64,000 bases of DNA from Hormiphora californensis (Eukaryota > Animalia > Ctenophora). A model generated the notes under the pieces. It was given only the letters and a program-made list of their open reading frames with translations. It was not told the origin of the DNA and did not search any database. The DNA is taken from NCBI GenBank assembly GCA_020137815.1, contig CM035352.1:2790001-2854000 (forward strand), read 5' to 3'. Positions 16,673 through 47,850 of this stretch are shown here, piece by piece; positions within the stretch are counted from its first letter, which is position 1; the number at the start of each line of letters is the position of its first letter. Position numbers and translations under genes: made by a program.

Positions 16673-16924
16673 GAAGTGATTGTTTGGAAATAGTTAATTG
16701 AGAGACTACTGTAATGTGATAAACACTTAAAATGAGATGTGTATAATTGAGAGGCCCTCAGTTAAGTTATTTTGAATGTACACACATCTTCACTTTTTGC
16801 TAAATAACCACAGTGTTTTAATTAACTCTCCAACCACCCTTCTCTCTTTCTTTCGCATTCTTGCCATTGCCTAAACCCGATCCTCTTTCTCTATCACATC
16901 CCCAACCTCCCTCCTCCCCTAGTT

Positions 16925-19900
16925 ATGTCTGATGATGACTATATGTGCGATACAGATGAAGACTACGATCTTCAGTATAGTGATGAAGAGGAGGAAGATG
17001 AGGAAGATAGTGTGTTAGAGAACCAGTATTACCAGAGCAAAGCCACCAAGGAGGACTCACTAACGGTACATACCTCCTAGCATATCCCCTATCATCTCCC
17101 GCTAGTTTTTGGGTTTGGACTACTACTGCACACCCCTCTAGTACTCACACTATAGGTTGAGAGTACAAGAGTGGGGGGATGCTATCGCTAAAAAGTAAAA
17201 ATGTTTCATGTTCTATTGTTCAGGACGCCTTGGAAGGCTTTGCTAAGGTGATAGAACTCCAGACGGAGCAAGGAGAGTGGGGATTCAAAGCACTGAAACA
17301 GATGTTAAAAATAAACTTTAAATTAGGTGAGTGAGATATATCTCCGTTTTAGATATCCCCGTACAGATCTCCTTCAGTAATATAATGGGGTTACAAATAG
17401 TTAACACCCAATCCCAGGAAGTTATGATGAGATGATGATACGATACCGGGAACTCCTTACCTACATTAAGAGTGCAGTGACCCGGAATCACAGTGAGAAA
17501 AGCATCAACTCTATCTTGGATTACGTCTCAGTCAGTAAAAACGTACGTTCATGATATTCTTGTTTAATTCTTCCGTTGTCAGATCCGTCGCTGTTAACCT
17601 AGTCATTGCGGCTGCTACTACTTTCGGGCTGATCATCCTCCAGATGCAGCAATCACAATCAACTAATTATACAGTTCTTACAAACCCCTTGTTGTGCACG
17701 AAATATAGTATAGCTAGGTAACTCGTTTTAACGATATAATTCCTCACTTTTCAGATGGTACTGCTGCAGGAGCTTTATGAGACTACTTTAGTAGCCCTTC
17801 AGCAGGCTAGAAATGAGCGGCTCTGGTTCAAAACCAATACCAAGCTAGGTATGTGAACCCCCTAATACTGGTTTACCTTGATCGTATCGACACTCACTGC
17901 CAAGAGTTAGAACAAGGTTTACCAATACACATCACATATCCTTTCAGGGAAGTTATATTTTGACCTGAGAGAATTTTGCCAGTTACAAAAAGTGATCAAG
18001 GAATTACATGCAGCGTGCAAAAACCAGGATGGTACTGATGATCAAAAGAAAGGTATTTGAAAATTAGGGCACAACCACCCCCCCCCCCCCTCCAATCACC
18101 ATCGCTCATATTTTGTGAATTTCTTCTGTACTATTTCAACCTTACATGTTGTTTTATCCATCACCACTACATTGATAGACAGTTGACAGTTGCAGTACTG
18201 GTTATAGCTGTAATTACAGCCACTTCAGGTAGTTCTGTGGGGCAGGTCATGTCACACTATTGGGAGGTTTAACAACGTAAGGCGCCATTCCTCACAAGTA
18301 GGGGTCTGTGCGCGGTGCGCGCGCTTAGTAGCACTCACTCTGTCTCACACACGCAACGAGCACACGGCTTTTTTGAAGACGCATCGTTTTGGGCGGCTTA
18401 AAAGTAATATAAACTCTGTTTAACAGCATAAAAACAAAAGTAAAAAACATCAGCAAGTACTAGTTTTTCTATTAATTTTAAGTATGTTTCTCTGACTATC
18501 GTCTTTAGAAGGCCCTGGTACTGATGTATTTCTCCGCACTAAATCAGGACTAGCAGGAGATATATCTGTTGGGACACCCACTGAGGCCACACAGGAGGGT
18601 TGGCCACCCACCTGAGGGACATAAAGAAGTTAACATTTTGAGAGGGAACAAACTATTCATAGAATCTCAAAAAAGTAATTGGAGCATAGTTACTTACCCT
18701 AAATTTACGGATGCTCTTTTTCACAACACTCCCTATAGCGTCATCATACAGCAAGGGATTAATAACAGAGTTTATTGGCAGTAGAATGGTAGAAAATAGG
18801 GAATACCAAGGCTGGGCATCTAGTATCTCCCCATAGTGCAACAAACACACTATAGTAAAGGGTACCCATGTTAGAAAGTCTGTCAGGATTATAACCCCTA
18901 CTTTGATCTGCAGCACCCTGTTTCTCTTCCTGCCTAGTTCCGAGGTCGAGCTGGTCTTAGCGTAACTGTAGACCATCAGGTAGCACACTGAGATGATGAC
19001 AAAACAGGTGAAGTCGAGGATTAGGACGAAGAGGGAGAAGCTGACTTGGGAGTCGGTGGATTGTACTAGGTACTTGAAGAGGCAAACCCCAGAGTTTCCG
19101 TAGAAATGAACTTTTTCACCTTCCACCGCTGAAGAAGAAATAGAGATTTAGTGGGGATTTAATTGGATGTCATAGTTTGGTTAAATGGTATATAAGTATC
19201 TTTAGTTTTGACTTAACTGTTCTGAATGACTGACCACTAACAAAAACACTAACAAATCCACTAACATTTAGTAAGACTTACTGCGGGTGTGTTTAGCCTT
19301 GTTGGAGCTGTTAAACATGCCATTAACAAAGTACCGGATATCATCCCAGGGCAGGTTCCCCTCTGTCGAGAACCTTCCATGGTACCCCCTCATGACATCA
19401 TAGTGTTTAGTCTTGGTGACACTAGCGGTAAACAGGGGTATCCCCTCATAGTACAAACCGTTCACAAAGACGTCTTCCCAAGCTGTCACCAAGGGAACGA
19501 GAGCTATGAAAAGGGAGAGTGACACCACTAATATCACCACTAGAGATAGTCTGACACGGGAACTGACTGCATTGATTGTCAGCCTGTCGTTAGTTTTTAG
19601 TGTTACTGTTTCCAGTCTGTACATGCTGAAGAATGTCATTGCAAAGAGGGACAGTTGAGATGCAGCTGTTGAGATGACCCCTAATGCTGCACACTGATCA
19701 CTAATCAGCCACTTGAACCTATCCCTACAGTACTGTTCTCCCATCAAGGCATCCTTGATCGATATCCAGAGGAGGTAGACCCCCATTAGTAGATCTCCAA
19801 GTGCAATTAACAACACCATTAGTGACGTCATAGCAACCCTGTACAGTTTGATCCTCTTCCAATTACCCAGATTCTTAACAATGTTGATAGTATTGAAGAA

Positions 19901-28046: not shown

Positions 28047-28120
<74 letters not shown>

Positions 28121-31100
28121 TTTTTTTCCGAATATATGTCTTCCGGTTCTCTATTTCTACTTTTCAGTGGTGGGTTGAAGTTTATTGTGACGTGCAGTGT
28201 ATTGCAAAAAGAGAGCTAATAACTTCCTGATACCAAGGGATGCAAATCGCTGATCAGGAAATAGAAAGTAGGATGGTACGAACACCCTAAGATTAGGGCT
28301 GGTTTCGGCCCTGACCGGTAAAAAATTGTAGCAAGCTAATTCCTTCATGGTTTTCATCGTTCATTCCGGGTGATCCTCTAAGGGAAGGATACACAAACAA
28401 AATATTCAGAGGGCATAATAGCAGACATATAGGATACATAATTATAGGTAGCAGACATTATAGGATATATTGGGAACAATAGTTTCAATTGTTTGGGTTA
28501 CTTGATGCTAATGGGTCATGCAGGGGTCATCATGCGCTGGCGTCACACACACCCCCACAAATATTAGCATATAAAGTGAGAGGAGACCCAAAACTGCAGC
28601 ACAAAAGAGTTATAACAACCACCAAGCTCATTGGACATGTGTAATGCTGAATACAATGCTGAACTAATGCATGTACAATTTAGTGTGAAAAGAGGCTGAA
28701 TTAGAACTGCACGTGCACTCTTTATACAGCTGCATTGTCTTGACCAGACCCGAGAGTAGTTCAATCATTCTGCACCATATATCCTTTATCCATAATTCAT
28801 CAGTGGGACATGGTGAATAGACCAAGTAAAATGGAGTAGCAAAAAGCGGAAAGTTTTTAAAATAGAGAAGGCAGAAGTCGAAAGTGAAGGGACTGAATCA
28901 GGAGCAAAATCTGGGTGGCTGGTATTCAAAAAGTAAGGTACACGATGAACTACTTCATAAAATGCAGCTTAACAGATTGTTAAGGCCAGAGGGGGGGGTC
29001 CGAGGGTTTAAAAAGTCACTTTCGGCCTCTGGTCCGGCTCGAAGAGCCGGACCAGATGGTATGCTCAGAATGGATTTTGCGCGCACTGTTTCGAAGAAAA
29101 ATGAGGTTAACTTTTGTCCAAAATCTAATGTTAACCTCATTTATCCATGAACCACAATAGCTACAAAGCTAAATTTAACACTGAATGAAAGATCTAGTTA
29201 CAAGGTCAGCTCAAACGAAGTTTCAGACCTCTACACCTAATGGTTGGAAAGAAATCTGAGGTTAACTTGATCCTCAAAAACTATGTTTTTCTTGAATATC
29301 TCGGATGAAATTTGGGCCAGTCTTGTCCCTTTCATTTGACAACCACTCATCCGTTAACCTCAGAACTTGGCAGGGATGTTCCTTGGATGGTCCTCTACAA
29401 AAGTGATGTAGCGATTTTTGATATCTGCCCCCGTTCAAAAATTATGAGGTTAACAATAGAGCCCGGTCGGCTAAAAATGCACTGTTAACCTCATAATTTT
29501 TGAACGGGGGCCGATATCAAAAATCGCTACATCACTTTTGTAGAGGACCATCCAAGGAACATCCCTGCCAAGTTCTGAGGTTAACGGATGAGTGGTTGTC
29601 AAATGAAAGGGACAAGACTGGCCCAAATTTCATCCGAGATATTCAAGAAAAACATAGTTTTTGAGGATCAAGTTAACCTCAGATTTCTTTCCAACCATTA
29701 GGTGTAGAGGTCTGAAACTTCGTTTGAGCTGACCTTGTAACTAGATCTTTCATTCAGTGTTAAATTTAGCTTTGTAGCTATTGTGGTTCATGGATAAATG
29801 AGGTTAACATTAGATTTTGGACAAAAGTTAACCTCATTTTTCTTCGAAACAGTGCGCGCAAAATCCATTCTGAGCATACCATCTGGTCCGGCTCTTCGAG
29901 CCGGACCAGAGGCCGAAAGTGACTTTTTAAACCCTCGGACCCCCCCTCTGGCCTTAAAGTGTAGTTATAACATATGATGACATAGGTAACAGAACCTGGC
30001 ATCTAGCTGCAACCTTCTCTAAACTTCTACCTTACTTTATATTTTTCTGTTCTGTCAATTTATTGTAAAGTCATCTGCTAAATTGTCAATTAATATAATA
30101 TTATCTTAATTAAAAGATGCAAATGAGTGGCGTGATGGTGATGATGTCCTATCCACACGTGCAAATAGTGGGGGGTTGTCAAGGAGGTGGCTTGGGAGGG
30201 GTATTGGAGGTGGGATACTGCACGTGCATGTTGTTTGTTGTTTATTGCGTGTTCCTGTGGCTGTTGTTGTTGGTGTTTTGGGATCTACTGCTGGGACCTC
30301 CATGATTGCCAAAGCCTTTCTACCTACGTACCCCGTTGATTCTCTACACAGCTACAATTCTACGGATCTTTATCACCTGATTCTACATGTTATTCAGCGG
30401 GATTTCCCTTGATGTTTATCACCATGGCGCTCTACCACTCTACCAACCTCCGTATTCTTTACCCCGACATGGAGAGACGAAGAGTAAGAGGGGGGGGGGG
30501 ACATAGAGTCGGGGGGGGGGGGGGGGGGGGGGGTGTTGTAGGACTTAACAATGGGCTTTCTAGTTAAAGCAAATAGGGAAATCCCATGTCCCGTTTTTTT
30601 ACCAAATATGGCATTTTGCACGTGCAGGTTTAGGGGTGGAGTACTATAGCTGGAGTTGGGCCAGGGGTGGGAGCCGTTGCCAAGGATTGTTACTAATGTA
30701 CTGCAGCTGCACGTGCAGCTGTTCTTGCGTTGTTTTTGTGTCACTGTTCCAGCTATTTATGCTCTCTTCAACAACCGTTGATATACGATTACGAAAGCGA
30801 CAATTGGAGATCTCACCGCCATTCTCTATTTTTCCATACACTGAGGGGTTTAAATACAGCAACACCAAGAGAACTGAGAAGTGCAGAGATAATGAAAAAG
30901 ACGTTGGAGGTTAGACAGAACCGGTGATCAATCCCAGATGAATAATGCAAACAGATGAAACGCGAGGAGTTCTAAAACTCGCAGCGATCCCGCCTGAGCT
31001 CCTTTTACGGTACGGTGCATGTCAACAGTTCGACTGGTGATGTCAGTGTTCCCTAATCCAGCTACCATTTCCCAGAAATTCGCCCGTAGGGCGAACGGGT

Positions 31101-32698
31101 TTACTAGTTAATATAATATATCAATAGCCCAGTTGGAAAATTTTATTCGAAGTTACTGGCAAGTTTCTTTGCATGACGTTCAAATCGAGGACCTAATCAC
31201 TAATCATTATGAAAACTGAAAACTAGATTTATCTTGCTATCATGACATGTATAATGTTCTGCACAGTGCACACACACACACATTTATTTTAATGACCCAT
31301 AAGGTGACACACCGTTAAGCTCCCTCTTGCTCTCTAAGACGAGGAAACAATAACATTATTTCTCCTATTGATCATCCTCCACTAGGCATATATTATAGCC
31401 ACCTGCACCCCAGCTGCAGCCCTTTTTAACACTCCCCATTCCCCACTAGGTACCCAGTTATTGGAGATATACGCTCTGGAAATTCAGATGTATACAGAAC
31501 AGAAGAACAATAAGAAGCTGAAGATGCTTTACGAGGCATCCCTGTCCGTTAAAAGTGCCATCCCCCATCCTCTTATCATGGGTGTTATCAGGTGAGTGCA
31601 GTCGTGATCAAATACTACTACTAGAACAGAGTGGTTGTGGTCGAAGAGTGGTTGGAACTTGGAAGAACAATTAGGCTACCATGCTTCAATCCAGCATAAT
31701 CCTTCGTGTATCCCGGGAAGGGAATGAACGGTGCTGTAGCTAGAACTTTTTGTGAAAATACCAAGAATCAAGTAAAGATGTAACATGACGTCGTGTCAAT
31801 GCTAGAAATTAGAGATACTATCACAAGCTGCACTGTATCAGGGCTAGTATCAGAACTATATCACTGGGCCATTATTTAATTATAATTAGTGACGACTGAT
31901 CACACATGTGTCATATTGGGATGAGAGCTAGATAGAGGAGGAGGAGGACTGCAGAGCTATGTAGCTACAGACTAGCGCACACACAGATCTTATACAATAT
32001 TGGAGATGAGATTCTTTTTGTTTCAATTTTAATCTCCAGACCATCTCTCACAGCTAGCTGTGTCTATGGAGGTGTGTACAGATCGAACACAAAGACATGA
32101 TATATTTATACGAGCTGGCCCTATTCACAAGTTATGCTAATTGCAAGCAAATGTGACATCAGTATACAGAAGACGATAGTACAGAGAGCGAGAGAGGAGA
32201 GGGAGGTAGAGAGGGAGGGAGAGAGTATCTCTCAGAGAGGGAGAGAGCCATGTAGATGGTTTTCTTGTACCATTATAAGGTGCCAATATAAGGTGCCAAT
32301 ATAAGGTGCCAATATAAGGTTTTAGCTTTGTCCACATTGGAAGACACTAATATATATATGTCCCTTCTCCCTCTCCCATGTACAATACAAGCTCCCTACT
32401 ATCCAATATTATTAATTCTACATTACATAACACCATTATGTTCCTGTAAAGCAGGTAGCTCATCTGTTTATTGATTCATTGAAAGAACGACAAGTTAGGT
32501 TAGTTTCATAAACGATACATTAGAATTTGAGCTTTTCGGGCTATATACAGATTGCAAGTCGCAAGAGGTATATACAAAGACAGGCGTACCGTGAAGCGTA
32601 CACACATGACACACAAGATCAGAACAGACGTAAACTCATGAGGGTTTTAGGTAAAGCAAATTGTCTCTATTGTCCTTCTTTCTCACACAGTCTGTTTT

Positions 32699-32748
<50 letters not shown>

Positions 32749-32816
32749 TCTCGCTCTCTCTCTATCTCTCTCTTTCTATCTCTATCTCTCTATCTCTCTC
32801 TATCTCTCTCTCTATA

Positions 32817-32895
<79 letters not shown>

Positions 32896-35800
32896 GTGAC
32901 GAATGCTGCTGAAACACACTCGCCATCAGACTGGTCAGGTAATCGATCCTGCAGTCCCCATGTTGGCACGGCGCACAGCCACTTCCTCGGTTACTTCCAA
33001 AAGTGGTAGCTGACATAGCCCTGGCAGTGGTTGTGCTGGTGGTGGTAGTTCGTTTGTTGCAGAGACGAGATACAGCACGTAGTAGAGAGTGTTTCTCCAG
33101 TTGTAACATGTTAATCTCACTCAACGTCTCCTGTGGGAGGGAGGGGATGATATTTTCTAACGGGAGACCGAGAGAGAGGGTCGAACAATGGGTTAGTGAT
33201 TGAACCAGGTTTATCCTACTATGGGGTATCATGGCAGTAATGGGTTCATGTTCTGGGCTAGGAGAGATAGTTTTCTGGGGGGGGGGGGGGGGTAGAGCCT
33301 TTAATACATACCTGCAGTTGTGACTCCAGTTTTCTGACGTGGTAGTGAGATAGGGAGTGACAGAGGTTCTCCAACATCAGATTACACCCACACTCGGCAG
33401 CTGAGTGGTCGGTTACTGCCTTGATGTGTTGAACATGGGCCTCCAGTAGCTGTCTTATCACTCTCACCTAGTGGACGAGGGACGTTATAGGCAGGGGAGC
33501 TGTATGGGAGGGGAAAGGTGTTGTAGCCTGTAGGGGAGCTAGAGGGAAATGGGTGTTGTATGGGAGGGGTGTTGTAGCCTGTAGGGGAGCTAGAGGGAAA
33601 TGGGTGTTGTATGGGAGGGGTGTTGTAGCCTGTAGGGGAGCTAGAGGGAGGGGTATTCAATGTTCAAATTAGAGGGAGGGGTGTTCAATGTTCACATTAG
33701 AGGGAGGGGTGTTCAATGTTCACATTAGAGGGAGGGGTGTTCAATGTTCACATTAGAGGGAGGGGTGTTCAATGTTCACATTAGAGGGAGGGGTGTTCAA
33801 TGTTCACATTAGAGGGAGGGGTGTTCAATGTTCACATTAGAGGGAGGGGTGTTCAATGTTCACATTAGAGGGAGGGGTGTTCAATGTTCACATTAGAGGG
33901 AGGGGTGTTCAATGTTCATATTAGAGGGCCAGGGGTGTGGCCTGTGGGGAAGAATGATTTATACTCCCTTTCTTCCTGGTATCTACTGTCACTGTCCCTC
34001 CTTACCTCTTGTGTGACATGTCCCAGTTGCTTGCTCGCCTCACTCAGTACTTGCGGGGTATCTGTATTGTGGGCCATTACTGCAATCGCCTGGGCTTTCT
34101 TCTTCAACTCTGCCGGTTCACTGTGAATCACTACCTTGCCTGAACGGAGGTGGGCTAGAACCGGGGTTAGCTAGTACTGATGATAAAAGAAAGCGCAAGT
34201 TTTTACGAAAAACAAATGTTTCACTGGTTATATGATCGTGTGAACTGAGAACTCGTGTGTGATTGTGCCAGGTCGATGAGTGCAACACACACACAGCTCT
34301 ACATACCTCCCTTTAGAGGGCAGTGAGGTGGGCAGATCTCCATCTTCAGAACAGCCTCTAGTTTGGCTTGTAGCTGATCCTTCCCATCTGCCTTACTGAA
34401 CCGCACCTTCTTTCTCTCCAGCTCTCTCCTTAGAGCGGGGATAGACAACTTCTTGAGCAGTTCCAGGCTGGTCTCCGCACTCAAACCACCGGGGATCTAC
34501 GGGGAGGATGGGGTGATATCAAACATAAAGTGGTAAATGAACACTAACGGATTATAGTTTTCCAAATTATTATCAACCTGTGTGGGTTTCCCTTGTGTGA
34601 GGTTGGGTGTAATGTACTGGTATCGGAAACGCTTTGAAACCCGGCGAGTAAACACACGAGACTTGATAATAGCAGGATTCTTGGAAGATTTAGTAGCAAC
34701 AACCATGATTAAAAAAAGGAAATACTGATTGCTAAAATGGAGAATTGTTGTTGCTTTTGTAGCAGTGAGAGAGTGAAACACAAGATGGCATGCAGCTAAT
34801 GAAGTGATCCTTATGACTGTATGCGCTCTTCTGTTACAGTCTCTGTAACATGTCTCAAATAGGAGCTGGGGCTGTGGGCTAATTAGGAGATCAGGCTAAT
34901 CAATATCTGATATAATCCCACCTGTCTACAACAATATATCTGGTATAATCCCACACCTGTTCAATAATAACCTGGTAATATACCTGTTCAGTCTGTACAC
35001 CGAGTGTTTGGGTGCCAGGTTTCTCTCCCACAACACATTCCACCTTCAAATCTCCAACATCAATTATCAATGGTGATGTCATACCTTCCTCTCCGTCTTC
35101 TGAAAATGGGTGGTTTTGTTACAGATATATAACCTGGATAGTCTCTCTGTATGGGTAACAAGAGAAGAGGGTCGAGGGTGCTATATACTATATAATATGG
35201 GCTACGTAAAATGATGTAGTTGGAGAGATGAGTGAGGTTTAAAGTCGGATTTTTTGAAACTGTCACCCCCCTAGAGTTTTCAAATTTCTTTAAATGACCA
35301 TAAATCCGGTTTCTGATGAGATAGAGACTTGCAATTTGGAAGTTACGAAGATCTTGCTAAGTTCTTCCGAACCTCCAAATTTCAAGTCTCTATCTTATCA
35401 GGAACTGGAGATATGACAAATTTTGTTATTTCAGGGGGGTGACAGTTTCAAAAAATCCGAGTTTAGTACTTTTCATGAGACCTTAAAACTTTGATTTTGT
35501 ATACATTGTCCTCTCAGGTTCGTTCCCCCAGAAGTAACGTCCTGTTTCTTACCTCCTTCTCTACTTCCATTGATCTCAGCAGCTGTCTCCCCTGCAGGGT
35601 GTACCCCGGGAGGGTTCATCATCCTACTAGGGGACCTCAACAACCCACCACCACCCGACCCAACACTACTTCTCATCATTGCTTCCTCTGCCGCATCCAG
35701 TTCTGCATCATCAAAGAAATCCTCGAAATCCTCCCCAGTTTCAGGGGGGAGATCTAACCGTTTGGGAGGTTCAGGGGGAGGTGGTGGTCTAGTAGTCCAA

Positions 35801-36475
35801 CTTCTCTTACAGGAGTCAGCCTTCCTCTCCTTGCATAACTTCATGTTTCCCTCGTCTAGAGATCGCTGCTTGTTAAACTTGACCCCTAACCTACTTCTCG
35901 GCCTTGGTATATTGGACCGATCAGGTCTCATGTCGTTCTCCTCTACAATCGTGTTTGGTCTCCTGGCTGGTGATGGGGTGCTATTGCCATAGTACCCGAA
36001 ACTCTTGCTCCTCCAGGTGTTCCGTTTGAAATGATGGTCTCCCATCCCAGCTGCTGTTGATCCTCCTCCTGATCTGTATCTGGATATGAGGGCTGCTAAC
36101 TCCTCCAGAGCTGTATGTTACTTGTTATGTTCTAACCCTCCGGGGCGCGGAGAGAGAGAGGGTGTCGAACAAGGCAAGTGTAGATTACAACAAGGTGAAC
36201 AGCACTAATATTATATACGGTATATAATATCTAGCAAAAGGAGGAGGAGGGAGTAGTATGAGCTCTCCAGGAGTGGCTTATAGACTCTATCTATCCGCAC
36301 ACACACATACAACCACTCACTCTCCAATAGAGTCTGCACTTGGTTGTCATAGCAACCCGACCATCAGCGGCCAGCAGCGCAGATAGGAGCGGAAGTGAAC
36401 GTGAGTGCTTAATTTAGGAGAGAGAGAGAGATAGAGAGGGAGAGGGAAAGAGAGAGAGAGAGATAGAGAGGGAGA

Positions 36476-36555
<80 letters not shown>

Positions 36556-39500
36556 CAGAGCTGCCGTGCCCTACAACTGTGGTGGTGGCTCATAAGCAGA
36601 AGGAGCGCTGTTTCAATAATAGAACTTGCACTGAAATTGCTCGATAATCAAAACAGTTGCTGTAGTCACAAAACGGAATATAAATCTAAATGCTCTTTCA
36701 TAAAAACAAACTTATAATAATCAGCGTCCTCCCGCAAAGTGCTCCTATTCTATAGGAGTACTTCATTTAGTCTAAGGACTAGAGTTCAACTTTTAATAGT
36801 TGGTTTGAGTTTCAAATAGTCTAGGCGTATGTAATGAGATAATGAGGGGTGTAGACTGTAGGGATAGGAGGAAGAGTAGCTCTGGAGTGGGAATTACTTA
36901 CCAGTTACCATTCTTTGAGGGGTTTCTGTGCAACAGACGAACAAAAACACAGTAATAAAGCAACAGAGAGCAGACTAAAAAGACAGCGAGATCATTTGGA
37001 ACTAAGGATAGAATATAGCAAAGATAGAGAGAGAGAGATATTATAATTGTCTACTAAATCATTATAGACTCCAAATCTCTACATACATCGAGCTGCAAGA
37101 GTGCTCCTCCTGTCATTACCATTTGTTTATCTGTCACGTGACTGATCACACTTCCGACCACAAATCTCATTTGTATTTAACCTCTGTATCTAACCTCTAT
37201 ATAACCTCTGTATCTAACCTCTAAACGCGTAAATACCTGAATATCTCTATCATCGACTGGATTACCACAAAAAAAACAGACCAAACCGAACCAGACGATT
37301 GTAAATTTACCAAACCTAACCGAGCATAAAATGTGCATCGTTTATCCCTCAAATCTCTCAAATTTTCATAAAGTCTATACTTGAGTCCTAAATCATCTTT
37401 TCAATTCTTATGAGAAGCCCAAATTCCTCTAATTCCCCTTTTGTCTAACCCTAACCAGACCCTCAAACCGCTCTGGGCAGGGAAGGGCAAACTGTATCCG
37501 TTCATAACTTATCCTCCATATACCCTAGTCCCTACAGCTACCCTCCGTATCCCCTCAATCATGCCCTTGTCTCCTCCTCCCCCCCCCCCTCAGATACTAA
37601 CCAGACCACCTATCACCTGTAGCAATGACAGCCGCAGATACAGAGAAAGCCCTCCAGAAGGCAGTGAACCCCGCCAAAACCCGGAAGGGCAAGAAGATCT
37701 TGCTGGCGAAGGAGCCCCAAATTATTGAGAATGACAAACAGACCATGATCCTAAAAGGGGCCAAAACAAGTGGTATGGTGAACGATGTCCTGGCCGATAT
37801 GTACAAGATCAGACGACAAAATACAGTGATGATGGCCAAATCTAACCCTTTCCTGCCGTTTGAGGACACCCAGCCATTATTGGACCTCCTTGCTAAGAAG
37901 GATACTAGCATGTTCCTGTTCGGGTCTCACAACAAGAAGAGGCCTCACAACTTGGTATTTGGCCGGACATACGATGGCCAGATGTTGGATATGATAGAGT
38001 TTGGGGTGACTGGTTTCAAGAAACTCTGCCAGTTTAAACAACCAAAGATCCCACTTGGAGCCAAACCGTGTTTGATCTTTAACGGTGACATGTTTGAGCG
38101 GTATCCAGAGTGGGGAGTGGTCCAGAATTATCTCTGTGATTTCTTTAATACCACCAAGACTAGTTCTATCAACCTGCAGGGACTGGAGTATGTCCTATCC
38201 TTCACCGCTTGTGAACCAAACATTCTGATGATGAGATCATATGAAGTTAACATGAAGAAATCAGGTACCAGCACCCCTTATGTAGAGCTGGAGGAGATCG
38301 GTATTTCACTGGATTTGGTACTGCGAAGAACACAACTAGCCGCACCAGAAGTAAAGAAACTAGCTCTGAAACAGCCCAAGGCGGCCAAGATCGGCAAGAC
38401 GAAGAACATCACACACGACTTGGCTGGTTCTAAGCTGGCAACAGTCCACATGACTAAACAGAATCTCCAGGAGATGCCCCAGAGCAGAATGAAGGGAAGT
38501 AGGAAACCAGAGGAAGGGGAATTTGTGAAGAAGAGTAAGAGGAAGGTGGTGAAGGAGAGTGGAGATGAAGGGGAGGAGGAGGTTGAGGCCATGGAAACCT
38601 CATGATAGGATGACTGTTATTTTTAATTTATTATCTGTTTTAATAGCTCAGTTTTAACTTCTTTACAGCAGTGTTTCAATCCCAACACGTGTCCAATTAT
38701 CCCGCCCCCTCCTTGTTCCTACACCCCTTACTCAACAACCCCTTCCACAATTTACTGACAACAAAATATGAACAAGACACAGTTGACATAATCGAAACAA
38801 ACTCTAAAGTCTACTATACCGACTCATGCGGGAGTTCTCCTCAGTCCCATGAATTTTCTAAGAAATCCCATACATTATAATAAATGAGAGTCCCACAATG
38901 CATTAGGTAGCACAACCACAACGCATTATAAAACTCTAAAATAGTGTGTACTGTGCAGTAGTACTGTACTGTGGGTACACAGTGTGTACTACACAGTGTG
39001 TAGTCTGTGTACCCAATGTATATGTTACCTGAGCAGTGATCATGGTGGTTACACTGGAAGAAGTAGCTCTCCGTCCTCGTTGATTCCATACTAACAAAGC
39101 CTAGGGTCAGAATCTGCATGCTATAACATAACACAAACACAGTAGGGGCAGAGATGGGGGGGTCATCTGGAGCTGGGGGTTGCAACTTTATACACACACA
39201 TTATGTAGAGAGATCTGGAGCTCAGTAACTGTAATTCGGGGTTCTTCAAGCATAAATAAGAGAGAAATGAAGATGAGGGGGTCTGTGTTCTGAATACGTG
39301 GTCGGTTAGAGGTAGTAATTTCAGGATGGGAAGAGAGAGAGGGGGAGAGAGAGAAATAAAGATAGCGAGATGCAAAGAGAGGGAAGGTTTGAAGCAATGC
39401 TTGTCCCAAGGGTCTGCTTGTGACTTGGTAAATTTACAAATTGATAATCCAACTAATTACCCTCTTTAAATCGTCCACTACTTCAAATACGAACATCATT

Positions 39501-41228
39501 AGACCTAGCATTAAAGAAAAACAAGCTTTGATACCAGCTCCAGTTTTCTGTTCTACTGTAGAACACTTTCACCAGTGTCACTTCCTCAAAATAAGTCCAC
39601 CAAATCACAAACCTTTATCTGATTCAAAACCCCCCGATTACCTCCCCTGACCCCTATCTCCCATTATACCTTACGTTAACATCCCTCCCCCTATCTCCTA
39701 GGGAATGTGGAGGCAAGATGCACCTACGAGAGGGCCAATACCAGAAGGCCCATACCGACTTCTTCGAGTCCTTCAAGAATTATGACGAGAGTGGCAGTCC
39801 AAGAAGGACAGCCTGTTTGAAATACCTAGTGCTGGCTAGTATGTTGATGAAGTCAAACATCAACCCATTCGACTCGCAGGTTAGCAGTAGTTTAACTGAG
39901 TCACAGTTAGACACTGCACTACTGACTACAGTAAAGGGGCGGGGTGCTCAATAATGATAATTTCTTGTCCAGACCGATAATTGCTGTTTCGGTTTTCAAG
40001 CTCGGGCACACGTCCAACAATAATTCCCCAGGAAGCAAAGCCGTACAAGAATGACAAGGAGATTATCGCAATGACCAATCTAGTGAAGTAAGTACCCCGG
40101 GGGGGGGGGGGGGATTTTCCGAGGCCATTTCAAGATGATCATGACCGTTGATAACCGACAAATTGTATTATTCTACCCAACACCCCCAGCTTTTCCTTGA
40201 TTAACATGTCCCACTCACCCTCTCTATACCCATTACCCAGTACCCACTCTATCCCACTCACCCTCTCTAGTCTCTACCCGTGCCCTGGAGGATTAGAACA
40301 TTTAACAACAGCTCCCCCACAACATAACAACATAACAACATCTCCCCCACCCCACAGTGCATACCAAAGCAACGATATAGAGCGGTTTCAGAGTATAGTA
40401 AAGGAACACCACTGCAGCGTAATGGAGGACACATTCATAAGGGAACACATAGAGGATTTATTAAAAAATATACGCACAGAGGTACATGTATAGTGTCGTA
40501 GTGTGTGTGTGTGTAGGGGGTTGTGGAGTTATTGGGAGGGAAGAGAGATGGTGTGTAGTGATAACTGATAGGTCCTGACGGTAGGCGGTAAATGTTAACC
40601 AGATCTGTGAGAATTTCGCACGTTTTTGCCCATAACTCAGCCATTTCTTGACCAATTTGCAAAATCTTTGGCTCATTGGAAAGAGGACATTGAGATCTCT
40701 CAAATGAGCTCAAGAAAATGAAGATTGGCGCAAATTGCGCGGCGTGGTGGCGAAAACGCGCATTTTGCGCCATGACGCCGCGCATTTTTCGCCGATTTTA
40801 GTTTTATTGGGTTCATTTGAAAGAGCTCAATGTCCTCTTTCCAACGCGCCCAAGATTTTGCAAATTGGTCAAGAAATGACTGAGTTATGGACAAAAACGT
40901 GGTTTTGCACGTACGTTTTCTCTCAGATCTGGTTAACATTTACCGCCTACCGGTCCTGACACTTCACAGATGTCTCATAAGACCGTCCTCTTCGTGTGGC
41001 TGTGGGCAAGAGGATGCCACAGTGAAATGGGGCAGTATGACACCCCCCCCCCCCCAGTATGACAAATCCTCAATTTTGAGGATCTGATCATTCTAATACC
41101 CCTCCCTCTTTCCCTTACTCAACAACCCCTCCCCCCTTTCAGGTTCTTATCAAGGTTATCAAACCATACACACGACTGAAGATAGACTACGTTGCTGGTG
41201 TACTAGGGATATCTTGTGAAGAGGTATA

Positions 41229-41325
<97 letters not shown>

Positions 41326-41427
41326 CTCTGTTCCCATGACTACGGGTACCTCCCACCGTCTCGGATGCAATGGTGTACGGAGATGAATTGCTTGTTTGAA
41401 TGCACAACTGTTTGTGTGGCTTGCAGG

Positions 41428-41517
<90 letters not shown>

Positions 41518-42133
41518 GTGTGGAAGTGGTAGTGCACAGGAAATCCAGCTGAAGAACCTGTGCGTGTGAACACTACTGCTGCAGTAGTAATCAATGTGTA
41601 GCACTAGAGCACGATGCTTTTAGGGAGTCTTAGACCCAATTCCACGAGACTGAGAAATGATTGTAGCTGGTATAATAAATCACTGACACCAGTGGTATTA
41701 CTTTATTGTACAGTGTCTTCCCCAGCACATACCCCCATCCCCCTGTTCTACAGTGTCCAGTGTCCAGTGTCCACTGTCCTGGGACAGTGTCCACCCCCAA
41801 CCCCACAGACTACAGTGTCTTCCCCAGCACACACCCCATCCCCCTGTTCTACAGTGTCCACTGTCCTGGGACAGTGTCCACCCCCAAACCCACAGACTAC
41901 AGTGTCTTACCATCCCTTCCCTTCCTCAGGTTGAACACTTGATGATCGGCTGTATTCTTGATGGGACTGTGCTAGGCAAGATAGACCAGCGGAATGGGAC
42001 TCTGGTCCTAGATAGGCTTTCAGAACCTGAGAAGTTGAGAACTGAGAGTCTAGCAGCGTGGAGTAAACAGATAAATCTTCTGTCTAAGAAGTTCCCTGCT
42101 GCGTGCCCGATCCGAGGCGGCCCCATCAGATAA
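16925..42133 (+). CDS. COPS2: COP9 signalosome subunit 2, 11 exons, with 13.4-kb and 8.1-kb gene-containing introns
   Basis: Exons 16925-17065, 17224-17326, 17418-17542, 17755-17848, 17948-18052, 31450-31591, 39702-39879, 40032-40087, 40358-40481, 41143-41223 and 41930-42133; all GT-AG and phase-compatible. Translation [19 protein letters not shown]...[11 protein letters not shown]...[12 protein letters not shown]...DDQKK|[16 protein letters not shown]...[13 protein letters not shown]|[11 protein letters not shown]...INPFDSQ|EAKPYKND... is colinear with CSN2. Confidence 0.96.
18450..27697 (-). CDS. LDLa-repeat class A GPCR (GRL101/LGR-like, no LRRs seen), nested antisense in COPS2 intron 5
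   Basis: Signal exon 27697-27640 ([19 protein letters not shown]); exons near 27524-27257, 27171-26930, 22658-22535, 22369-22266 and 22164 onward; large exon 21481-~19280 with many LDLa modules ([26 protein letters not shown]) and TM1-4 ([12 protein letters not shown]); TM5-7 exon ([30 protein letters not shown]); last exon stops at 18450. Confidence 0.88.
22737..26897. mobile_element. 4.2-kb Foldback-like element: long inverted arms whose inner parts are inverted 32-bp minisatellite arrays
   Basis: CAGGGTGTGAACTGCATG ... CATGCAGTTCACACCCTG, flanked on both sides by TAAAA (possible 5-bp TSD). About 570 bp of unique arm is followed by arrays of CCTACCTCCCATTTACTCCATCTCTCAGCTTC (~23310-25140) and its reverse complement (~25147-26335). 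No transposase. Confidence 0.88.
28051..28116. repeat. (CT)n microsatellite
   Basis: Directly visible. Confidence 0.95.
28984..29953. mobile_element. Palindromic non-autonomous DNA transposon (TTAA target site, GG..CC termini, Kolobok-like)
   Basis: TTAA|GGCCAGAGGGGGGGGTCCGAGGG ... CCCTCGGACCCCCCCTCTGGCC|TTAA. Arms ~470 bp with a ~25-bp spacer near 29457-29482. Confidence 0.88.
31079..31108 (+). mobile_element. Helitron-type 3' terminus (hairpin followed by CTAG-T)
   Basis: TTCGCCC-GTA-GGGCGAA hairpin, then CGGGTTTACTAG|T. Confidence 0.5.
32700..32892. repeat. (CT)n microsatellite
   Basis: Directly visible; abuts the stop codon of the nested orphan gene. Confidence 0.95.
32891..36045 (-). 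CDS. Uncharacterised multi-exon gene (disordered N-terminus, SAP/HeH-like helix pair), nested antisense in COPS2 intron 6
   Basis: Phase-compatible GT-AG exons at ~36045-35553, ~35099-34985, ~34496-34308 ([33 protein letters not shown]), ~34139-34006, ~33467-33312 and ~33131-32891. The frame stays open upstream to an AG near 36111. Confidence 0.62.
33519..33928. repeat. Intronic tandem arrays: ~51-bp unit x2.5, then 28-bp unit x~9
   Basis: ATTAGAGGGAGGGGTGTTCAATGTTCAC repeated over ~33655-33928, preceded by a GGTGTTGTAGCCTGTAGGGGAGCTAGAGGGA... unit. Confidence 0.9.
35243..35462. mobile_element. MITE with AGTCGGATTTTTTGAA terminal inverted repeats
   Basis: TTAA|AGTCGGATTTTTTGAAACTGTCACCCCCC ... 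GGGGGGTGACAGTTTCAAAAAATCCGAGT. Same terminal repeat as the element at 42801-43062. Confidence 0.8.
36420..36552. repeat. (GA)n microsatellite
   Basis: Directly visible. Confidence 0.95.
37133..37142. promoter_or_regulatory. Palindromic extended E-box GTCACGTGAC between the divergent nested genes
   Basis: Perfect 10-bp palindrome (bHLH-ZIP USF/MiT/Myc-type site) about 480 bp upstream of the RPF2 ATG. Confidence 0.35.
37625..38605 (+). CDS. RPF2: Ribosome production factor 2 (Brix domain), intronless CDS, nested on the same strand in COPS2 intron 6
   Basis: 326-aa intact ORF: [95 protein letters not shown]. Confidence 0.96.
   Translation: MTAADTEKALQKAVNPAKTRKGKKILLAKEPQIIENDKQTMILKGAKTSGMVNDVLADMYKIRRQNTVMMAKSNPFLPFEDTQPLLDLLAKKDTSMFLFGSHNKKRPHNLVFGRTYDGQMLDMIEFGVTGFKKLCQFKQPKIPLGAKPCLIFNGDMFERYPEWGVVQNYLCDFFNTTKTSSINLQGLEYVLSFTACEPNILMMRSYEVNMKKSGTSTPYVELEEIGISLDLVLRRTQLAAPEVKKLALKQPKAAKIGKTKNITHDLAGSKLATVHMTKQNLQEMPQSRMKGSRKPEEGEFVKKSKRKVVKESGDEGEEEVEAMETS
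40580..40951. mobile_element. MITE with a 9-bp target-site duplication (MULE/Merlin-like) in COPS2 intron 9
   Basis: GGTCCTGAC|GGTAGGCGGTAAATGTTAACCAGATCTG ... CAGATCTGGTTAACATTTACCGCCTACC|GGTCCTGAC; imperfect palindrome throughout. Confidence 0.88.
41233..41512. repeat. (CT)n and (GA)n tracts in inverted arrangement in COPS2 intron 10
   Basis: (CT)n at ~41233-41328 and (GA)n at ~41432-41512, separated by about 100 bp. Confidence 0.92.
41706..41910. repeat. Imperfect ~85-100-bp tandem duplication near the end of COPS2 intron 10
   Basis: Repeated TACAGTGTCTTCCCCAGCAC...GTCCTGGGACAGTGTCCACCCCCAA.CCCACAGAC. Confidence 0.75.
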
Positions 42134-43864: not shown

Positions 43865-44658
43865 TAGTAGAGTCGATAACTACATCGACCTCTCCCAATT
43901 GTTCCAGTTTTTTTTCACAACTGTTTGGAGCCTAGACACGACCTCTAAACAGGTGTTACTTTTTCACAAACTGTTTTCATCTTGGTGTAATCAGCAGTTG
44001 AAATGTTGCTGATCATAACAAAAACCTGACTAAATTTTTTCAACTTGGGGTAAAACCATGGGTGTCAAAAGTTAGCTCTAGGTCCCCTGAGTAACCATCC
44101 GGAGACTCCAAGAGATATTTCAAGCCGTTCTCCTGTAATCATTAATCCCGGTAGAGCACATATTTGAGTATGGACGTACGTGCAATTGCCTACAACCTCA
44201 ACTTTAATGTATAACGTTAATGTGCGTCTCTCTCTTTTCTCCCCCTTGAGAAAGAGTTATCTCGCGCGGCGCAACCGCACGTGCGGTTTTTCCAGAGAGA
44301 GTGAGAGACATACAATAACATGTAAACAGCCTGCCAGCGCTCACGTACGTCCGCATTGTATTTTTTTCTCCACCGGGATTAATGATTACGGGAGAACGGC
44401 TTGAAATATCTCTTAGAGTCTCCGGATGGTTACTCAGGGGACCTAGAGCTAACTTTTGACACCCATGGTTTTACCCCAAGTTGAAAAAATTTAGTCAGGT
44501 TTTTGTTATGATCAGCAACATTTCAACTGCTGATTACACCAAGATGAAAACAGTTTGTGAAAAAGTAACACCTGTTTAGAGGTCGTGTCGAGGCTCCAAA
44601 CAGATGTGACAAAAACTGGAACAATTGGGAGAGGTCGATGTAGTTATCGACTCTACTA
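43865..44658. mobile_element. Non-autonomous DNA transposon with ~290-bp terminal inverted repeats
   Basis: TAGTAGAGTCGATAACTACATCGACCTCTCCC ... GGGAGAGGTCGATGTAGTTATCGACTCTACTA; inner spacer ~44160-44365. Confidence 0.85.
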
Positions 44659-45562
44659 TGTGAGATCACGCGCGCCGCGAGGTTGCCCGTCGCAACGAAA
44701 GTGTGACCAAAATGGTCCCTCTACCGATTAGTTAGTATACCAAAATGTCGTTTTCGAATTCTGCTGTGCCTTTTTACATAGTAAAAAGGCATCCGGGTGA
44801 ATGCCTTCGGCATTCACCCGGGCAGGGAAAAAATTTAGGATTCCTTCCGGTACTTAACATACTTCCAGGGGGCATCAGAGCCCAGGAAACACTTGGTAAT
44901 GAAATTACCCCTCTGTGCAAGCTCACGGATGCAATATTAGGGGTGACTTCGTAACCAAAGGAAACACCAGGAACCTTGAATGGACCTTGAATGAGGGTAT
45001 AGAATAGTCCAAGTATGAAGTTCCATGACCTCATCTTGCCAACTATCTTCTGGGTTAGGACCAACACTTGTAAAGATCCGAAATGAACACCGTGAACTAC
45101 GGTATAGCCACTGAACAGCCAGCTACTATTATATCCGGGGGTAGGACGGAATACCGACCAGTGATCACGATGGTCACAGATGGTGGTCAGTCAATATGGT
45201 TTTGTTCAAATTCATTTCATTTTATAAAGGGGGCTTGGTAACGCAATTACCCCTACATTGCGGGCACGCTAAAAAGTGCCTTACTATCGCAATGCCCTAT
45301 TATTGCGTTACCAAAAAGGGGGCCTAGCTAGGCAACAATCTGTTCCGACCAATAAGGTCAACTTATTGAGTTATCTATATTATATCTCAGTCTCAAACTC
45401 ACACCTCACGACGCCCTCTTCTTTTTCGATATCTCTGCCCTCTCTTCATAATAATATGAATATAACAACGTTTCTGCGTTCTTTAATAGCGTTTCTGTGT
45501 GATATTCAAATATTACTATAAAATGGTGCCTGCACACCAGTAAATAGCGTTAGTTAGAACTT

Positions 45563-47850
45563 GTGGCATATTGCTTGATCATGACTCTAGCAGCAGCAGC
45601 AAAACATTGGATTCTCATCACGTTCCCAGTGTTGTGTGTGTGTTCGATGCCTCCCGTCGTTCCACCTCCAAACACCAACAATTCCATCTCCGTGGTCCCA
45701 ACCTTCCACCTAGCTAAAAGCAAAACGTTGGCACGTGATTTTATGTCAATTAAACGGTCCTGCAACATTGTCCCGAGCGAAGAGATCGTCCCGGATACCG
45801 AGCCTTCTCCACACGGGGATGATGATGAGCTCACATGTCCCTTTACTGCCAACCCGTTGACGACGTGTGATGGGTACAGCAAGGCATGTTTAGGAATGTC
45901 CTGGAGCTGCACCATTTCTAGTTGGAACACATGTGACGGGTACTCACAATGCCTGATGGATGAGTGTGGTAACGACTGTAACACTTCTGTTATCTACTGT
46001 CCAGGACCAGGTAGGGGCTGTGTCAGTATGGCCCAGGCGTGTGATGGGATTGCGGACTGCCCGGGAGGAGAGGACGAGAGAGCGTGTGAGGGGGCTCAAA
46101 ACCTCACATGTTTAAACCGAGAAGAACAGTCCATCAACTTGACAACTTCTCCCGCTGCTCTGTGTGGGGGTGCCCTAACCAAGCATGTAGCCCGGCCCAT
46201 TTGGAGATATTGTGGAGAATGCCAAGACAAGGGAGAAGTCACCGTAGTGGAACAATGCATTGCTTTCGTCGGGTCTTTTTCCAAGAACTCTCCTACTAGC
46301 AAGATCCAGGGAGAATGCAGGGAGAGATGCAACGTTACAAAGGAGCTATGTGGACTTATAATGGGAGGTAACAACCCCATAGTGCCAATGATGGGAATTC
46401 ACTTAGCATGCCTGTCAGGTGATTACCTATTGATTGGTGCCCTGTGTGATGGTGTTATAGATTGTCCAGACAGAAGCGACGAGAAGTATTGTCCAGACAG
46501 GTTTTATTGTAGTGTCAAGGACGCAGAGTGGGTTGAAGAGAGCAAGGTTTGTGATGGTTATCGAGACTGTAAAACGGGACTGGATGAGTGCAACACATGT
46601 GCCCGGGGTTTTTTCTCTTCGGACGAGCGGATAATCCGGCACACCACCTCCTGTGGAGTCTGCGTGTTTGTGGTTGTAGTGATCATCGCCGCTAACATTT
46701 ACCATCTCCTAGAGATAATTAACCACTCCCTGGACCCTGATGCAGGTAAACACATCCTTGTGGATAGGTTTCTAAGGATAGCACTCATTGTCCACGATCT
46801 ACTGATGGGGGTCTACCTGGGGTGTCTCCTTATCGCTAACTTCTGGTTCTATGGCCGGTACTGTCAATTTGATACGGAATGGAGGACGGGTACCTCTTGT
46901 CACGTTTTGGGGGTGTTATTCAGTGTCTCCTCACATGGATCTCTTTTAACTGTCCTTCTCATGTCCATAACCCGGGCCTACAAGTGCGCAAATCCACTAA
47001 CAGAGGGCTTTCGAAAGAGTTCTGTACACATCGTATCAGGACTCCTCCTACTACTAAATCTAGTCCATGCTACAATCCCGCTGGTCAAGATAGGAATAGT
47101 TCAGGAGGTGTTTAGAAATCACATCCAGATCCCCAACACTAACCCCTTTTTAGAGAAGCAGCACACAAACCTAAATATGTCTAGGATTAGTGAGATTCAC
47201 GCGGTGTTCTTTAGTAACAGTTCCAGTGCTGATTACTATGATAAGGTTCAAGATTTGAAGTCCATAACAAACACACCCGATATATTTGATGTCAAGGATT
47301 TCTCTCTCTACAGTTGGTCTCCAGTGTGCCTCCCTGACATGTTTACCACCCGGCCAGGTCCCATGGTCTACTACAAGATCTTATACGTATCCTGCTCTTG
47401 GGTTCGTGCTCCTCCTAGTGGCTGTATCTTACGGCCTCATATTGTATTCCATGGTGAAGACGTCCATAGTGAAGCCTAAAGATCAAAGAATTGGGGTGGT
47501 GGGAAAAAAGGTAGCGGTGATCGTGGGTGTCAAGTTCTCTACCTGGGTGTTTGTCCTGACCATCATGGTTTACACCATGGTGACAGAGGGTTTTGTGGGC
47601 TCGACCTGGTATGAAATTACATGCCATCATTATAATACCCATCAACAGTGGTCTAAATCCTGTATTCCATTCCGAGCTTTACAAGAAACTAACAGCACTA
47701 TGGACCCGGATATCCACTACAGTTAGCAAACTGACTAACACGAATGTTTTGGTGGATATCCATGCTGTAGCCCAGATGTCTACTGGACAGGCAGGGTCAC
47801 GAGGAGAATATAGAGATGAAGGACGATTGGTCCTGATCGCACAGGACTAG
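45563..47850 (+). CDS. Second LDLa-repeat class A GPCR, apparently intronless, with two frameshifts (~47395 and ~47620)
   Basis: LDLa modules (CDGIADCPGGEDE, CDGVIDCPDRSDE, CDGYRDC); TM motifs [31 protein letters not shown] and IIIPINSGLNPVF. True start uncertain. Confidence 0.82.

What the first reader, a model, noticed from the sequence alone, without database searches (positions are those of the whole stretch)
37133..38605. Essential RPF2 gene on the same strand inside a COPS2 intron, with its own acceptor: an intron-encoded cistron?
Seen: an intact intronless RPF2 lies sense within COPS2 intron 6, preceded by strong acceptor-like sites (CTCCTCCTCCCCCCCCCCCTCAG ending 37593; TAG-CA-ATG at 37620-37627). 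To make COPS2, the exon-6 donor must skip these AGs and polymerase must ignore RPF2's 3'-end signal. Known: nested genes are mostly antisense because same-strand nesting creates this conflict. Inference: RPF2 mRNA may be cut out of the COPS2 pre-mRNA or excised intron by SL trans-splicing, like a protein-coding analogue of intronic snoRNAs. Alternatively it is driven by a bidirectional intronic promoter shared with the divergent orphan gene (GTCACGTGAC at 37133). Either way the cell must distinguish cis from trans acceptors. This is the best candidate for an undescribed system in the window.
Basis: partly seen in the sequence, partly recalled or inferred. Interest (0 to 1): 0.85.

Follow-up and report, generated by a model that had tools for sequence, protein, structure and literature searches.

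The report
Conserved same-strand nested RPF2 in COPS2
In this comb-jelly genome an intact ribosome-assembly gene (RPF2) sits inside an intron of the COPS2 gene on the same strand, an arrangement likely shared with Mnemiopsis; it is likely transcribed from its own promoter and given a spliced leader rather than cut out of the host RNA, so it is a good test case of a known but unexplained kind of nested gene.

Summary
An intact intronless RPF2 (37625-38605) lies sense in COPS2 intron 6 (31592-39701). One RNA contig splices exon 6 to exon 7 across it, and RPF2 contigs occur in three RNA runs. The AG at 37593 scores second of 660 AGs in the intron. The animal is a non-lobate ctenophore. A lobate RPF2 contig begins with the ctenophore spliced leader. 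A Mnemiopsis gene model fuses RPF2 to COPS2 exons 7-11, and its neighbouring locus tag is the ortholog of the antisense nested gene. The layout is therefore likely old, not a mis-assembly, and that gene is not an orphan. Nothing supports a host-derived RPF2 mRNA. RPF2 lies head-to-head with the antisense gene, which cannot come from COPS2 RNA; an unpaired acceptor also precedes COPS2's own ATG; and a second same-strand nested gene in the window carries the same upstream E-box. Best reading (0.7): an own, probably bidirectional, intronic promoter with an SL-trimmed outron. No start site was mapped. Parallel nested genes and SL trans-splicing are already published for Hormiphora. How COPS2 transcripts skip this acceptor and 3' end remains open and is testable here.

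The parts
16925..18052 (+). COPS2 exons 1-5 (16925-17065, 17224-17326, 17418-17542, 17755-17848, 17948-18052); unpaired acceptor AG at 16922, 2 nt before the ATG
   Evidence: Open 450-aa model; acceptor 16.1 bits; an X1 contig on exon 6 has a loose 5' end that reads as exon-5 sequence
31450..31591 (+). COPS2 exon 6, donor GTGAGT, phase 2
   Evidence: RNA contigs in X1, X3, X4
31592..39701 (+). COPS2 intron 6 (8110 nt), host of two nested genes
   Evidence: joint 31589-39700 in one X3 contig
32891..36911 (-). Antisense nested gene, 7-exon model of 473 aa (36911-36902, 36110-35553, 35099-34984, 34496-34307, 34154-34006, 33467-33312, 33130-32891); no Pfam family; orthologs in Mnemiopsis and Bolinopsis
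   Evidence: Open model; three CT..AC joints in RNA contigs; homologs. Homology reaches up to 36039; the first micro-exon is inferred from donor and frame only
36926..37570 (.). Divergent spacer: likely promoter(s) and RPF2 outron. GC 0.39, three plus-strand ATGs (37331, 37410, 37561), no plus-strand donor above 2.6 bits
   Evidence: promoter function inferred; no RNA contig lies here
37133..37142 (.). Palindromic E-box GTCACGTGAC
   Evidence: one of two GTCACGTGA sites in the window; function untested
37571..37593 (+). Strong C-rich acceptor, predicted SL addition site (31-nt residual 5' UTR)
   Evidence: 17.4 bits, 2nd of 660 AGs; SL on ortholog L001; not seen on this species' RNA
37625..38605 (+). 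Intronless RPF2, 326 aa
   Evidence: RNA contigs over 37738-38592 in X1-X3; 18 of 19 listed variants synonymous
38606..38884 (+). RPF2 3' flank: U-rich tract directly after the stop, first AATAAA at 38879; cleavage site not mapped
   Evidence: inference
39702..42133 (+). COPS2 exons 7-11 (39702-39879, 40032-40087, 40358-40481, 41143-41223, 41930-42133)
   Evidence: RNA joints 39876-40029 and 40087-40358; match to P0154 residues 319-518

Best explanation
RPF2 is an intact, expressed gene nested on the same strand in COPS2 intron 6; it is likely transcribed from its own, probably bidirectional, promoter in the spacer it shares head-to-head with the antisense nested gene, and its short donor-less leader is likely replaced by the ctenophore spliced leader at the AG at 37593. 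On such a transcript the acceptor has no upstream donor, so trans-splicing would be the default and would remove up to three upstream ATGs. On COPS2-initiated transcripts exon 6 is joined to exon 7 across RPF2 (shown by one contig). How the 37593 acceptor and the RPF2 3' end are passed over is inferred: most likely exon 7 wins because it is a defined internal exon with an acceptor of equal strength, while U1 bound at the open exon-6 donor would damp cleavage at the RPF2 3' end. Leaks would give a stop two codons after exon 6, so no fusion protein. The origin is probably an intronless copy that settled beside an existing promoter before the split from lobate ctenophores.
For: Shown: nesting, splice across it and RPF2 expression. 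The antisense gene starts 0.7-1.6 kb from the acceptor, head-to-head, and cannot be made from COPS2 sense RNA. Best plus-strand donor in the spacer is 2.6 bits of 23 GTs, below all 28 true donors (3.3-11.6). L001, whose protein is 327/329 identical to Bolinopsis RefSeq RPF2, starts with 25 nt matching the SL 3' end, ending AATTTGAG 6 nt before the ATG (23 of 26 columns; best of 78 loci). An unpaired acceptor before the ATG is not special to RPF2: COPS2 has one of 16.1 bits, and SL is on at least 56% of Hormiphora Iso-Seq reads (PMC8527503, passages). Exon 6 to 37594 stops after 2 residues; to 37623 it is out of frame. The only other GTCACGTGA in 64 kb lies 98 nt upstream of a second same-strand nested intronless gene. 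Intronic promoters feeding SL acceptors in large introns are reported in the introduction of PMC5832876 (passages).
Against: No transcription start site was mapped, and no RNA contig covers this species' RPF2 5' end; SL is shown only on an ortholog. The 5' end of the antisense gene is not RNA-supported: its putative first acceptor scores -0.8 bits, and a 10-bit minus-strand donor at 37236 may mark a further exon, which would put the E-box inside that gene's intron. The E-box coincidence is post hoc (2 or more sites in 11 of 200 shuffles). Tight same-strand spacing nearby (NDUFS7 stop to COPS2 acceptor 250 nt; INTS1 stop to NSF acceptor 412 nt) is compatible with polycistronic transcription. 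In Schistosoma 43% of SL sites are at cis acceptors, mostly with the donor present (PMC5832876), so an upstream donor does not forbid trans-splicing. The exon-definition and U1 steps are recalled from other animals and were not tested.
Confidence: 0.7

Rival explanations
1. Alternative-operon model: some COPS2-initiated transcripts are cleaved at the RPF2 3' end and SL-trans-spliced at 37593, with exons 1-6 discarded as a giant outron. Each transcript would give either COPS2 or RPF2.
For: The acceptor is as strong as exon 7's; SL on an RPF2 ortholog; short same-strand gaps upstream suggest possible operons; trans-splicing at 3' sites of long introns and in competition with cis donors is reported in Schistosoma; the layout is conserved.
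Against: It needs about 21 kb of transcription per RPF2 mRNA and must beat the open exon-6 donor; a head-to-head neighbour implies a promoter next to RPF2 anyway; no direct evidence in any call.
Confidence: 0.14
2. snoRNA-like model: RPF2 mRNA is made from the excised COPS2 intron-6 lariat by SL trans-splicing plus 3' processing, so one transcript gives both mRNAs.
For: RPF2 lies wholly within one spliced intron; SL trans-splicing can supply a cap.
Against: It needs cleavage and polyadenylation to wait until exon 7 is transcribed and spliced, then act on a lariat (established knowledge: co-transcriptional cleavage triggers termination). No precedent turned up in my searches. No positive evidence here.
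Confidence: 0.04
3. RPF2 also acts as an alternative first exon of COPS2, giving a real Brix-PCI fusion protein, as in the Mnemiopsis model ACHWQZ_G005014.
For: P0154 is RPF2 1-318 joined in frame to COPS2 exon 7 onward.
Against: It is 1 of 311 proteins held with both halves; no fusion among the best 150 hits of the 50% library; the other listed members of its cluster are 319 aa; Bolinopsis RefSeq RPF2 stands alone; no GT at that codon in the window or in L001. The three Mnemiopsis annotation methods I read are automated, and such pipelines can miss nested genes (PMC10282587, passages).
Confidence: 0.05
4. Mis-assembly, or a silent duplicate RPF2 copy.
For: No genome was held, so copy number was not tested; the exon 6-7 splice rests on one contig.
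Against: The same gene order is implied in Mnemiopsis; RNA contigs are 95-100% alike with 18 of 19 listed changes synonymous; the ORF aligns full length with 15 relatives.
Confidence: 0.03

Closest known systems
Parallel nested intronic genes of Hormiphora californensis (Schultz et al. 2021, PMC8527503; section 38 whole, other passages; supplements could not be read)
   Same: Ctenophore gene inside one intron of a host on the same strand; several genes in one host; SL trans-splicing common (56% of Iso-Seq reads as a lower bound); the paper names the same processing conflict.
   Different: The text seen gives 2357 nested genes but no count of parallel ones, no mechanism and no mention of this pair. 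Here both genes are core housekeeping genes and conservation to a lobate is indicated.
Same-strand nested gene pairs of human, mouse, fly, fish and worm (PMC2330155; passages)
   Same: Nested parallel protein-coding pairs exist (75 human pairs, 22 conserved in mouse) and are under-represented.
   Different: Human and mouse lack SL trans-splicing (own knowledge), so their inner genes need no unpaired 5' acceptor; here the inner gene carries an acceptor as strong as the host's next exon.
SL-trans-spliced genes with outrons and bidirectional promoters in C. elegans (Saito et al. 2013, PMC3730108; passages) and intronic SL sites of Schistosoma mansoni (PMC5832876; passages)
   Same: Own start site, a discarded outron (median 369 nt in C. 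elegans, which fits the spacer), divergent start-site pairs, and cis/trans competition at intronic acceptors.
   Different: In the passages seen those acceptors belong to the same gene or to non-nested genes; here the acceptor belongs to a different gene inside a host intron.
Unusual and alternative operons of C. elegans (Morton and Blumenthal 2011; only the reference-list entry seen; content recalled)
   Same: One pre-mRNA resolved either by cis-splicing or by trans-splicing plus 3' end formation; this is the model for rival 1.
   Different: Co-transcription of RPF2 with COPS2 is not shown.
Intron-encoded snoRNAs (recalled)
   Same: A ribosome-biogenesis product inside an intron of a housekeeping host.
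   Different: snoRNAs are uncapped, non-polyadenylated and trimmed from the lariat; RPF2 is a coding mRNA, probably capped by SL, and was found in oligo-dT libraries.

Membership tests
Parallel nested intronic gene | Whole coding sequence lies within one intron of another gene | tested here: met
   37625-38605 within 31592-39701
Parallel nested intronic gene | Same strand as the host | tested here: met
Parallel nested intronic gene | Host intron is spliced out across the inner gene | tested here: met
   1 contig in 1 of 4 runs, joint 31589-39700 GT..AG
Parallel nested intronic gene | Inner gene is expressed and constrained | tested here: met
   contigs in X1-X3; 18 of 19 listed variants synonymous; contigs cannot show strand or level
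SL-trans-spliced monocistronic gene with outron | Unpaired 3' splice site upstream of the ATG, no donor in the leader | tested here: met
   17.4 bits; best spacer donor 2.6 bits
SL-trans-spliced monocistronic gene with outron | SL on the mature mRNA | tested here: inconclusive
   seen on ortholog L001; no contig covers the 5' end in this species
SL-trans-spliced monocistronic gene with outron | Own transcription start site | not testable with these tools
   needs CAGE or nascent 5' ends; only contigs were available
Operon-type downstream cistron | Co-transcribed with the upstream gene from one promoter | not testable with these tools
   no long or nascent reads held
Operon-type downstream cistron | Short intercistronic gap after an upstream poly(A) site (about 100 nt or less in worm and tunicates, PMC7986045 passages) | tested here: not met
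   the nearest upstream plus-strand exon ends 6.0 kb away and is an internal exon
Intron-encoded (snoRNA-like) product | No own promoter; released by host splicing | not testable with these tools
   no direct test; the head-to-head neighbour argues for a nearby promoter
RPF2 (Brix family) | Full Brix domain; best named hits RPF2 | tested here: met

The most novel reading that the evidence does not exclude
In ctenophores the essential RPF2 mRNA is carved out of the COPS2 pre-mRNA: SL trans-splicing at an intronic acceptor plus 3' cleavage, either instead of COPS2 (a cis/trans switch between two housekeeping proteins) or from the excised intron. The layout has been kept since before the lobates split, and it may be the general route for hundreds of same-strand nested genes.
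Probability: 0.17. Interest if true: 0.82.

Novelty: new member of a known kind. Interest (0 to 1): 0.42.

Why it matters
Same-strand nesting is selected against in most animals, and the Hormiphora genome paper leaves open how ctenophores process such pairs. This locus is a clean test case: two highly conserved housekeeping genes, an inner acceptor as strong as the host's next exon, and a layout that likely also exists in Mnemiopsis, where ATAC, H3K4me3 and single-cell data are published (PMC12221973, passages). One look at those tracks would separate own promoter from host-derived. In practice, the Mnemiopsis GenBank model ACHWQZ_G005014 is probably a false RPF2-COPS2 fusion caused by this nesting, which warns about automated ctenophore annotation.

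Tried and rejected
No genome was held, so RPF2 copy number was not tested. Raw reads were not available: all 4 runs are contigs, each holding at most 0.11 of the sampled words, and X4 is only about 83% alike on RPF2. No contig covers 37594-37701 or the spacer, and none joins exon 6 to RPF2 or RPF2 to exon 7. Cover is too thin for these absences to count. No SL-gene copy was found in the window (25-nt pattern, up to 3 mismatches, 0 hits). An AT-rich window stretch near 2151 scores 40 against the SL, above L001's 38, so the score alone is not proof; position and the terminal AATTTGAG carry the L001 claim. L002 has TTTTAATTGAG just before its ATG but scores 23 against a median of 21, so it is not counted. 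The acceptor matrix is C-rich and scores U-rich sites poorly (NDUFS7 5' site -0.6, NSF 3.5), so it cannot judge those; one hand-read intron was dropped from training because its anchor failed. A search for ctenophore COPS2 with exon 11 found nothing, so I could not place COPS2 exons 1-6 in Mnemiopsis or Bolinopsis. Bolinopsis accession numbers of RPF2 and the antisense ortholog are 300 apart and say nothing on adjacency. The tag ACHWQZ was not in the main text of PMC11797021 or PMC13231562, so the evidence behind the fused model is unknown. Derelle 2010 and Morton and Blumenthal 2011 are not held. The Hormiphora supplements with the nested-gene list could not be read and may hold this pair. 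The protein atlas did not answer. Earlier scan findings: nothing relevant. 'Pair not in print' rests on one search for RPF2/COPS2/CSN2/ctenophore, 12 of 36 listed; most subscription papers are not searched.

Full report
OBSERVATION. RPF2 is one open frame at 37625-38605, 326 aa, with a full Brix domain and RPF2 as its best named relatives. COPS2 builds from 11 exons with GT-AG ends into an open 450-aa protein, and exon 6 matches CSN2. Intron 6 is 31592-39701; intron 5 is also large (13,397 nt). The quoted motifs are at 37571-37593, 37620 and 37133. Scored with a matrix from 28 cis acceptors of the window, the AG at 37593 gets 17.4 bits, second of 660 AGs in intron 6. The real exon-7 acceptor gets 18.3 (it was in the training set), and the leave-one-out median of true sites is 8.8. 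The second site, 37622, gets 2.3.

RNA. Four runs were offered, all as contigs and all holding a small share of the stretch. One X3 contig joins exon 6 to exon 7 across RPF2 (31589 to 39700, GT..AG, 63 letters on the shorter side), and further joints match COPS2 introns 7 and 8 and three introns of the antisense gene. Contigs of X1-X3 cover RPF2 from 37738 to 38592, mostly 95-100% alike. Of the 19 X1-X3 variants listed, 18 are synonymous (41 further rows were not shown). No contig reaches the RPF2 5' end.

ORGANISM. The window RPF2 falls in a 17-row clade (100/100) with named Mnemiopsis and Bolinopsis proteins, outside the 8-row group that holds both (98/97). It is 69% identical to each, while they are 84% identical to each other. 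It is thus a non-lobate ctenophore; the species was not determined.

SPLICED LEADER. Schultz 2021 gives the Hormiphora leader, ending AATTTGAG, on 56% of Iso-Seq reads as a lower bound (PMC8527503, passages). Locus L001 begins with 25 nt matching its 3' end (23 of 26 columns, best of 78 loci) and has its ATG 6 nt later. Its protein is 327/329 identical to Bolinopsis RefSeq RPF2. RPF2 is therefore SL-trans-spliced in a lobate, and probably here at 37593 (inferred). An unpaired acceptor before the start codon is not peculiar to RPF2: COPS2 itself has a 16.1-bit one 2 nt before its ATG.

THE NEIGHBOUR IS NOT AN ORPHAN. The antisense gene builds as 7 exons and 473 aa. Its fourth exon finds 5 proteins at 88% identity, among them Mnemiopsis ACHWQZ_G005013 and Bolinopsis LOC134812522, and these match the model up to position 36039. 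Its 5' end is head-to-head with RPF2, 0.7 kb from the acceptor if the inferred micro-exon at 36925-36902 is first, 1.6 kb by homology alone. A strong minus-strand donor at 37236 may mark one more exon.

CONSERVATION. The Mnemiopsis RPF2 record is ACHWQZ_G005014, the next locus tag, and is 530 aa. Residues 1-318 are RPF2; residue 319 onward is COPS2, starting exactly at the first whole codon of exon 7. A gene model can only join these if RPF2 lies on the same strand just upstream of COPS2 exon 7, so the layout is likely shared. This is inferred from a model and locus tags; I did not see Mnemiopsis DNA or its exons 1-6. In Bolinopsis, RPF2 and the antisense ortholog both list a contig of 21,284,423 bases, and two ENA proteins (P0126, P0149) both list one of 43,765. 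The fusion itself is probably an annotation error: it is 1 of 311 proteins held with both halves, none appears among the best 150 hits of the 50% library (clustering could hide some), and the donor it needs is absent in the window and in L001. Full-length RPF2 is called on long ENA contigs in the Mnemiopsis and Bolinopsis clusters, which suggests it is intronless there too. P0129, from a more distant ctenophore cluster, breaks off after KKSG as if at an intron. That fits an intronless copy arising within ctenophores (inference).

A SECOND CASE IN THE WINDOW. An intronless kinase (51142 to about 50305, minus, one frameshift near 50770) lies in an intron of an ankyrin-TRP-like channel gene on the same strand. 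GTCACGTGA occurs twice in 64 kb, at 37133 and at 51241, each upstream of one of the two same-strand nested genes; shuffles give a mean of 0.29 and 2 or more in 11 of 200. This was noticed after the fact and is weak, but it fits inner promoters and shows that such nesting is not rare here.

MECHANISM. Shown: nesting, splicing across RPF2, RPF2 expression, a strong acceptor, SL on an ortholog, a divergent conserved neighbour. Inferred: a promoter in the spacer drives RPF2 and probably the antisense gene, which cannot come from COPS2 sense RNA. The RPF2 leader has no usable donor (best 2.6 bits of 23 GTs; true donors 3.3-11.6), so SL would be added at 37593 and up to three upstream ATGs lost. The spacer fits the C. 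elegans median outron of 369 nt (PMC3730108, passages). For COPS2 transcripts I think exon 7 wins as a defined internal exon while U1 at the exon-6 donor damps early cleavage; both steps are recalled from other animals and untested. A leak from exon 6 to 37594 stops after 2 residues, and to 37623 is out of frame. Against this reading: no start site is mapped; tight gaps of 250 and 412 nt between upstream genes allow operons; and in Schistosoma trans-splicing often occurs at cis acceptors with the donor present (PMC5832876, passages). I put own promoter at 0.70, an either-or operon-like route at 0.14, a lariat-derived route at 0.04, a real fusion at 0.05 and artefact at 0.03; a mix of the first two is possible.

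KNOWN KINDS. [quoted passage not shown] Human has 75 nested parallel pairs in one survey, and same-strand overlaps are under-represented (PMC2330155, passages). The locus meets every tested feature of a parallel nested gene. It fails the short-gap feature of an operon cistron (PMC7986045, passages), and co-transcription could not be tested. I found no paper on this pair (and the searches listed under Tried and rejected), but the Hormiphora supplements were not readable.

VERDICT. Real, expressed and probably ancient; a new member of a known kind. The host-derived cistron is unproven and less likely than an own promoter, but the locus makes an open question directly testable with existing Mnemiopsis and Hormiphora data. 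Interest 0.42; 0.82 if host-derived (probability 0.17).

Noticed in passing
window 51142-50305 (minus), inside an intron from about 51727 to 50029 of an ankyrin-TRP-like gene: Second same-strand nested gene: an intronless Ser/Thr kinase with one frameshift near 50770 (assembly error or decay), preceded by two CACGTG E-boxes at 51243 and 51257.
   Followed up: partly
Mnemiopsis ACHWQZ_G005014 (KAL5263805.1, P0154): GenBank model fuses RPF2 to COPS2 exons 7-11; probably an annotation error caused by the nesting.
   Followed up: yes
window 2541-42133 (plus): Four housekeeping genes in a row on one strand (INTS1-like and NSF named by eye from their sequence, NDUFS7, COPS2) with short gaps (412 nt INTS1 stop to NSF acceptor, 250 nt NDUFS7 stop to COPS2 acceptor) and AG sites just before the start codons; candidate ctenophore operons.
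   Followed up: partly
window 18053-31449: COPS2 intron 5 is 13.4 kb and holds antisense cysteine-rich LDLa-type receptor coding sequence (read by eye), so the host carries nested genes in two successive introns.
   Followed up: no
window about 22740-26900: Large inverted repeat whose arms enclose two opposed blocks of a roughly 32-nt tandem repeat, foldback-element-like; further long inverted repeats near 28985-29955, 9880-10790 and 43970-44660.
   Followed up: no
window 37237-37256 (minus): Possible extra 20-nt 5' exon of the antisense gene: a 10-bit donor at 37236 with a U-rich acceptor-like stretch before it; it would shrink the divergent spacer to about 340 nt.
   Followed up: partly
P0129 (cluster of P0015): RPF2 of a distant ctenophore cluster reads off-frame after KKSG on a long genomic contig, suggesting an intron there that the window and the lobates lack.
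   Followed up: no
window 45525-47479 (plus): Intronless LDLa-repeat GPCR-like ORF of about 640 aa that appears to change frame near 47400.
   Followed up: no
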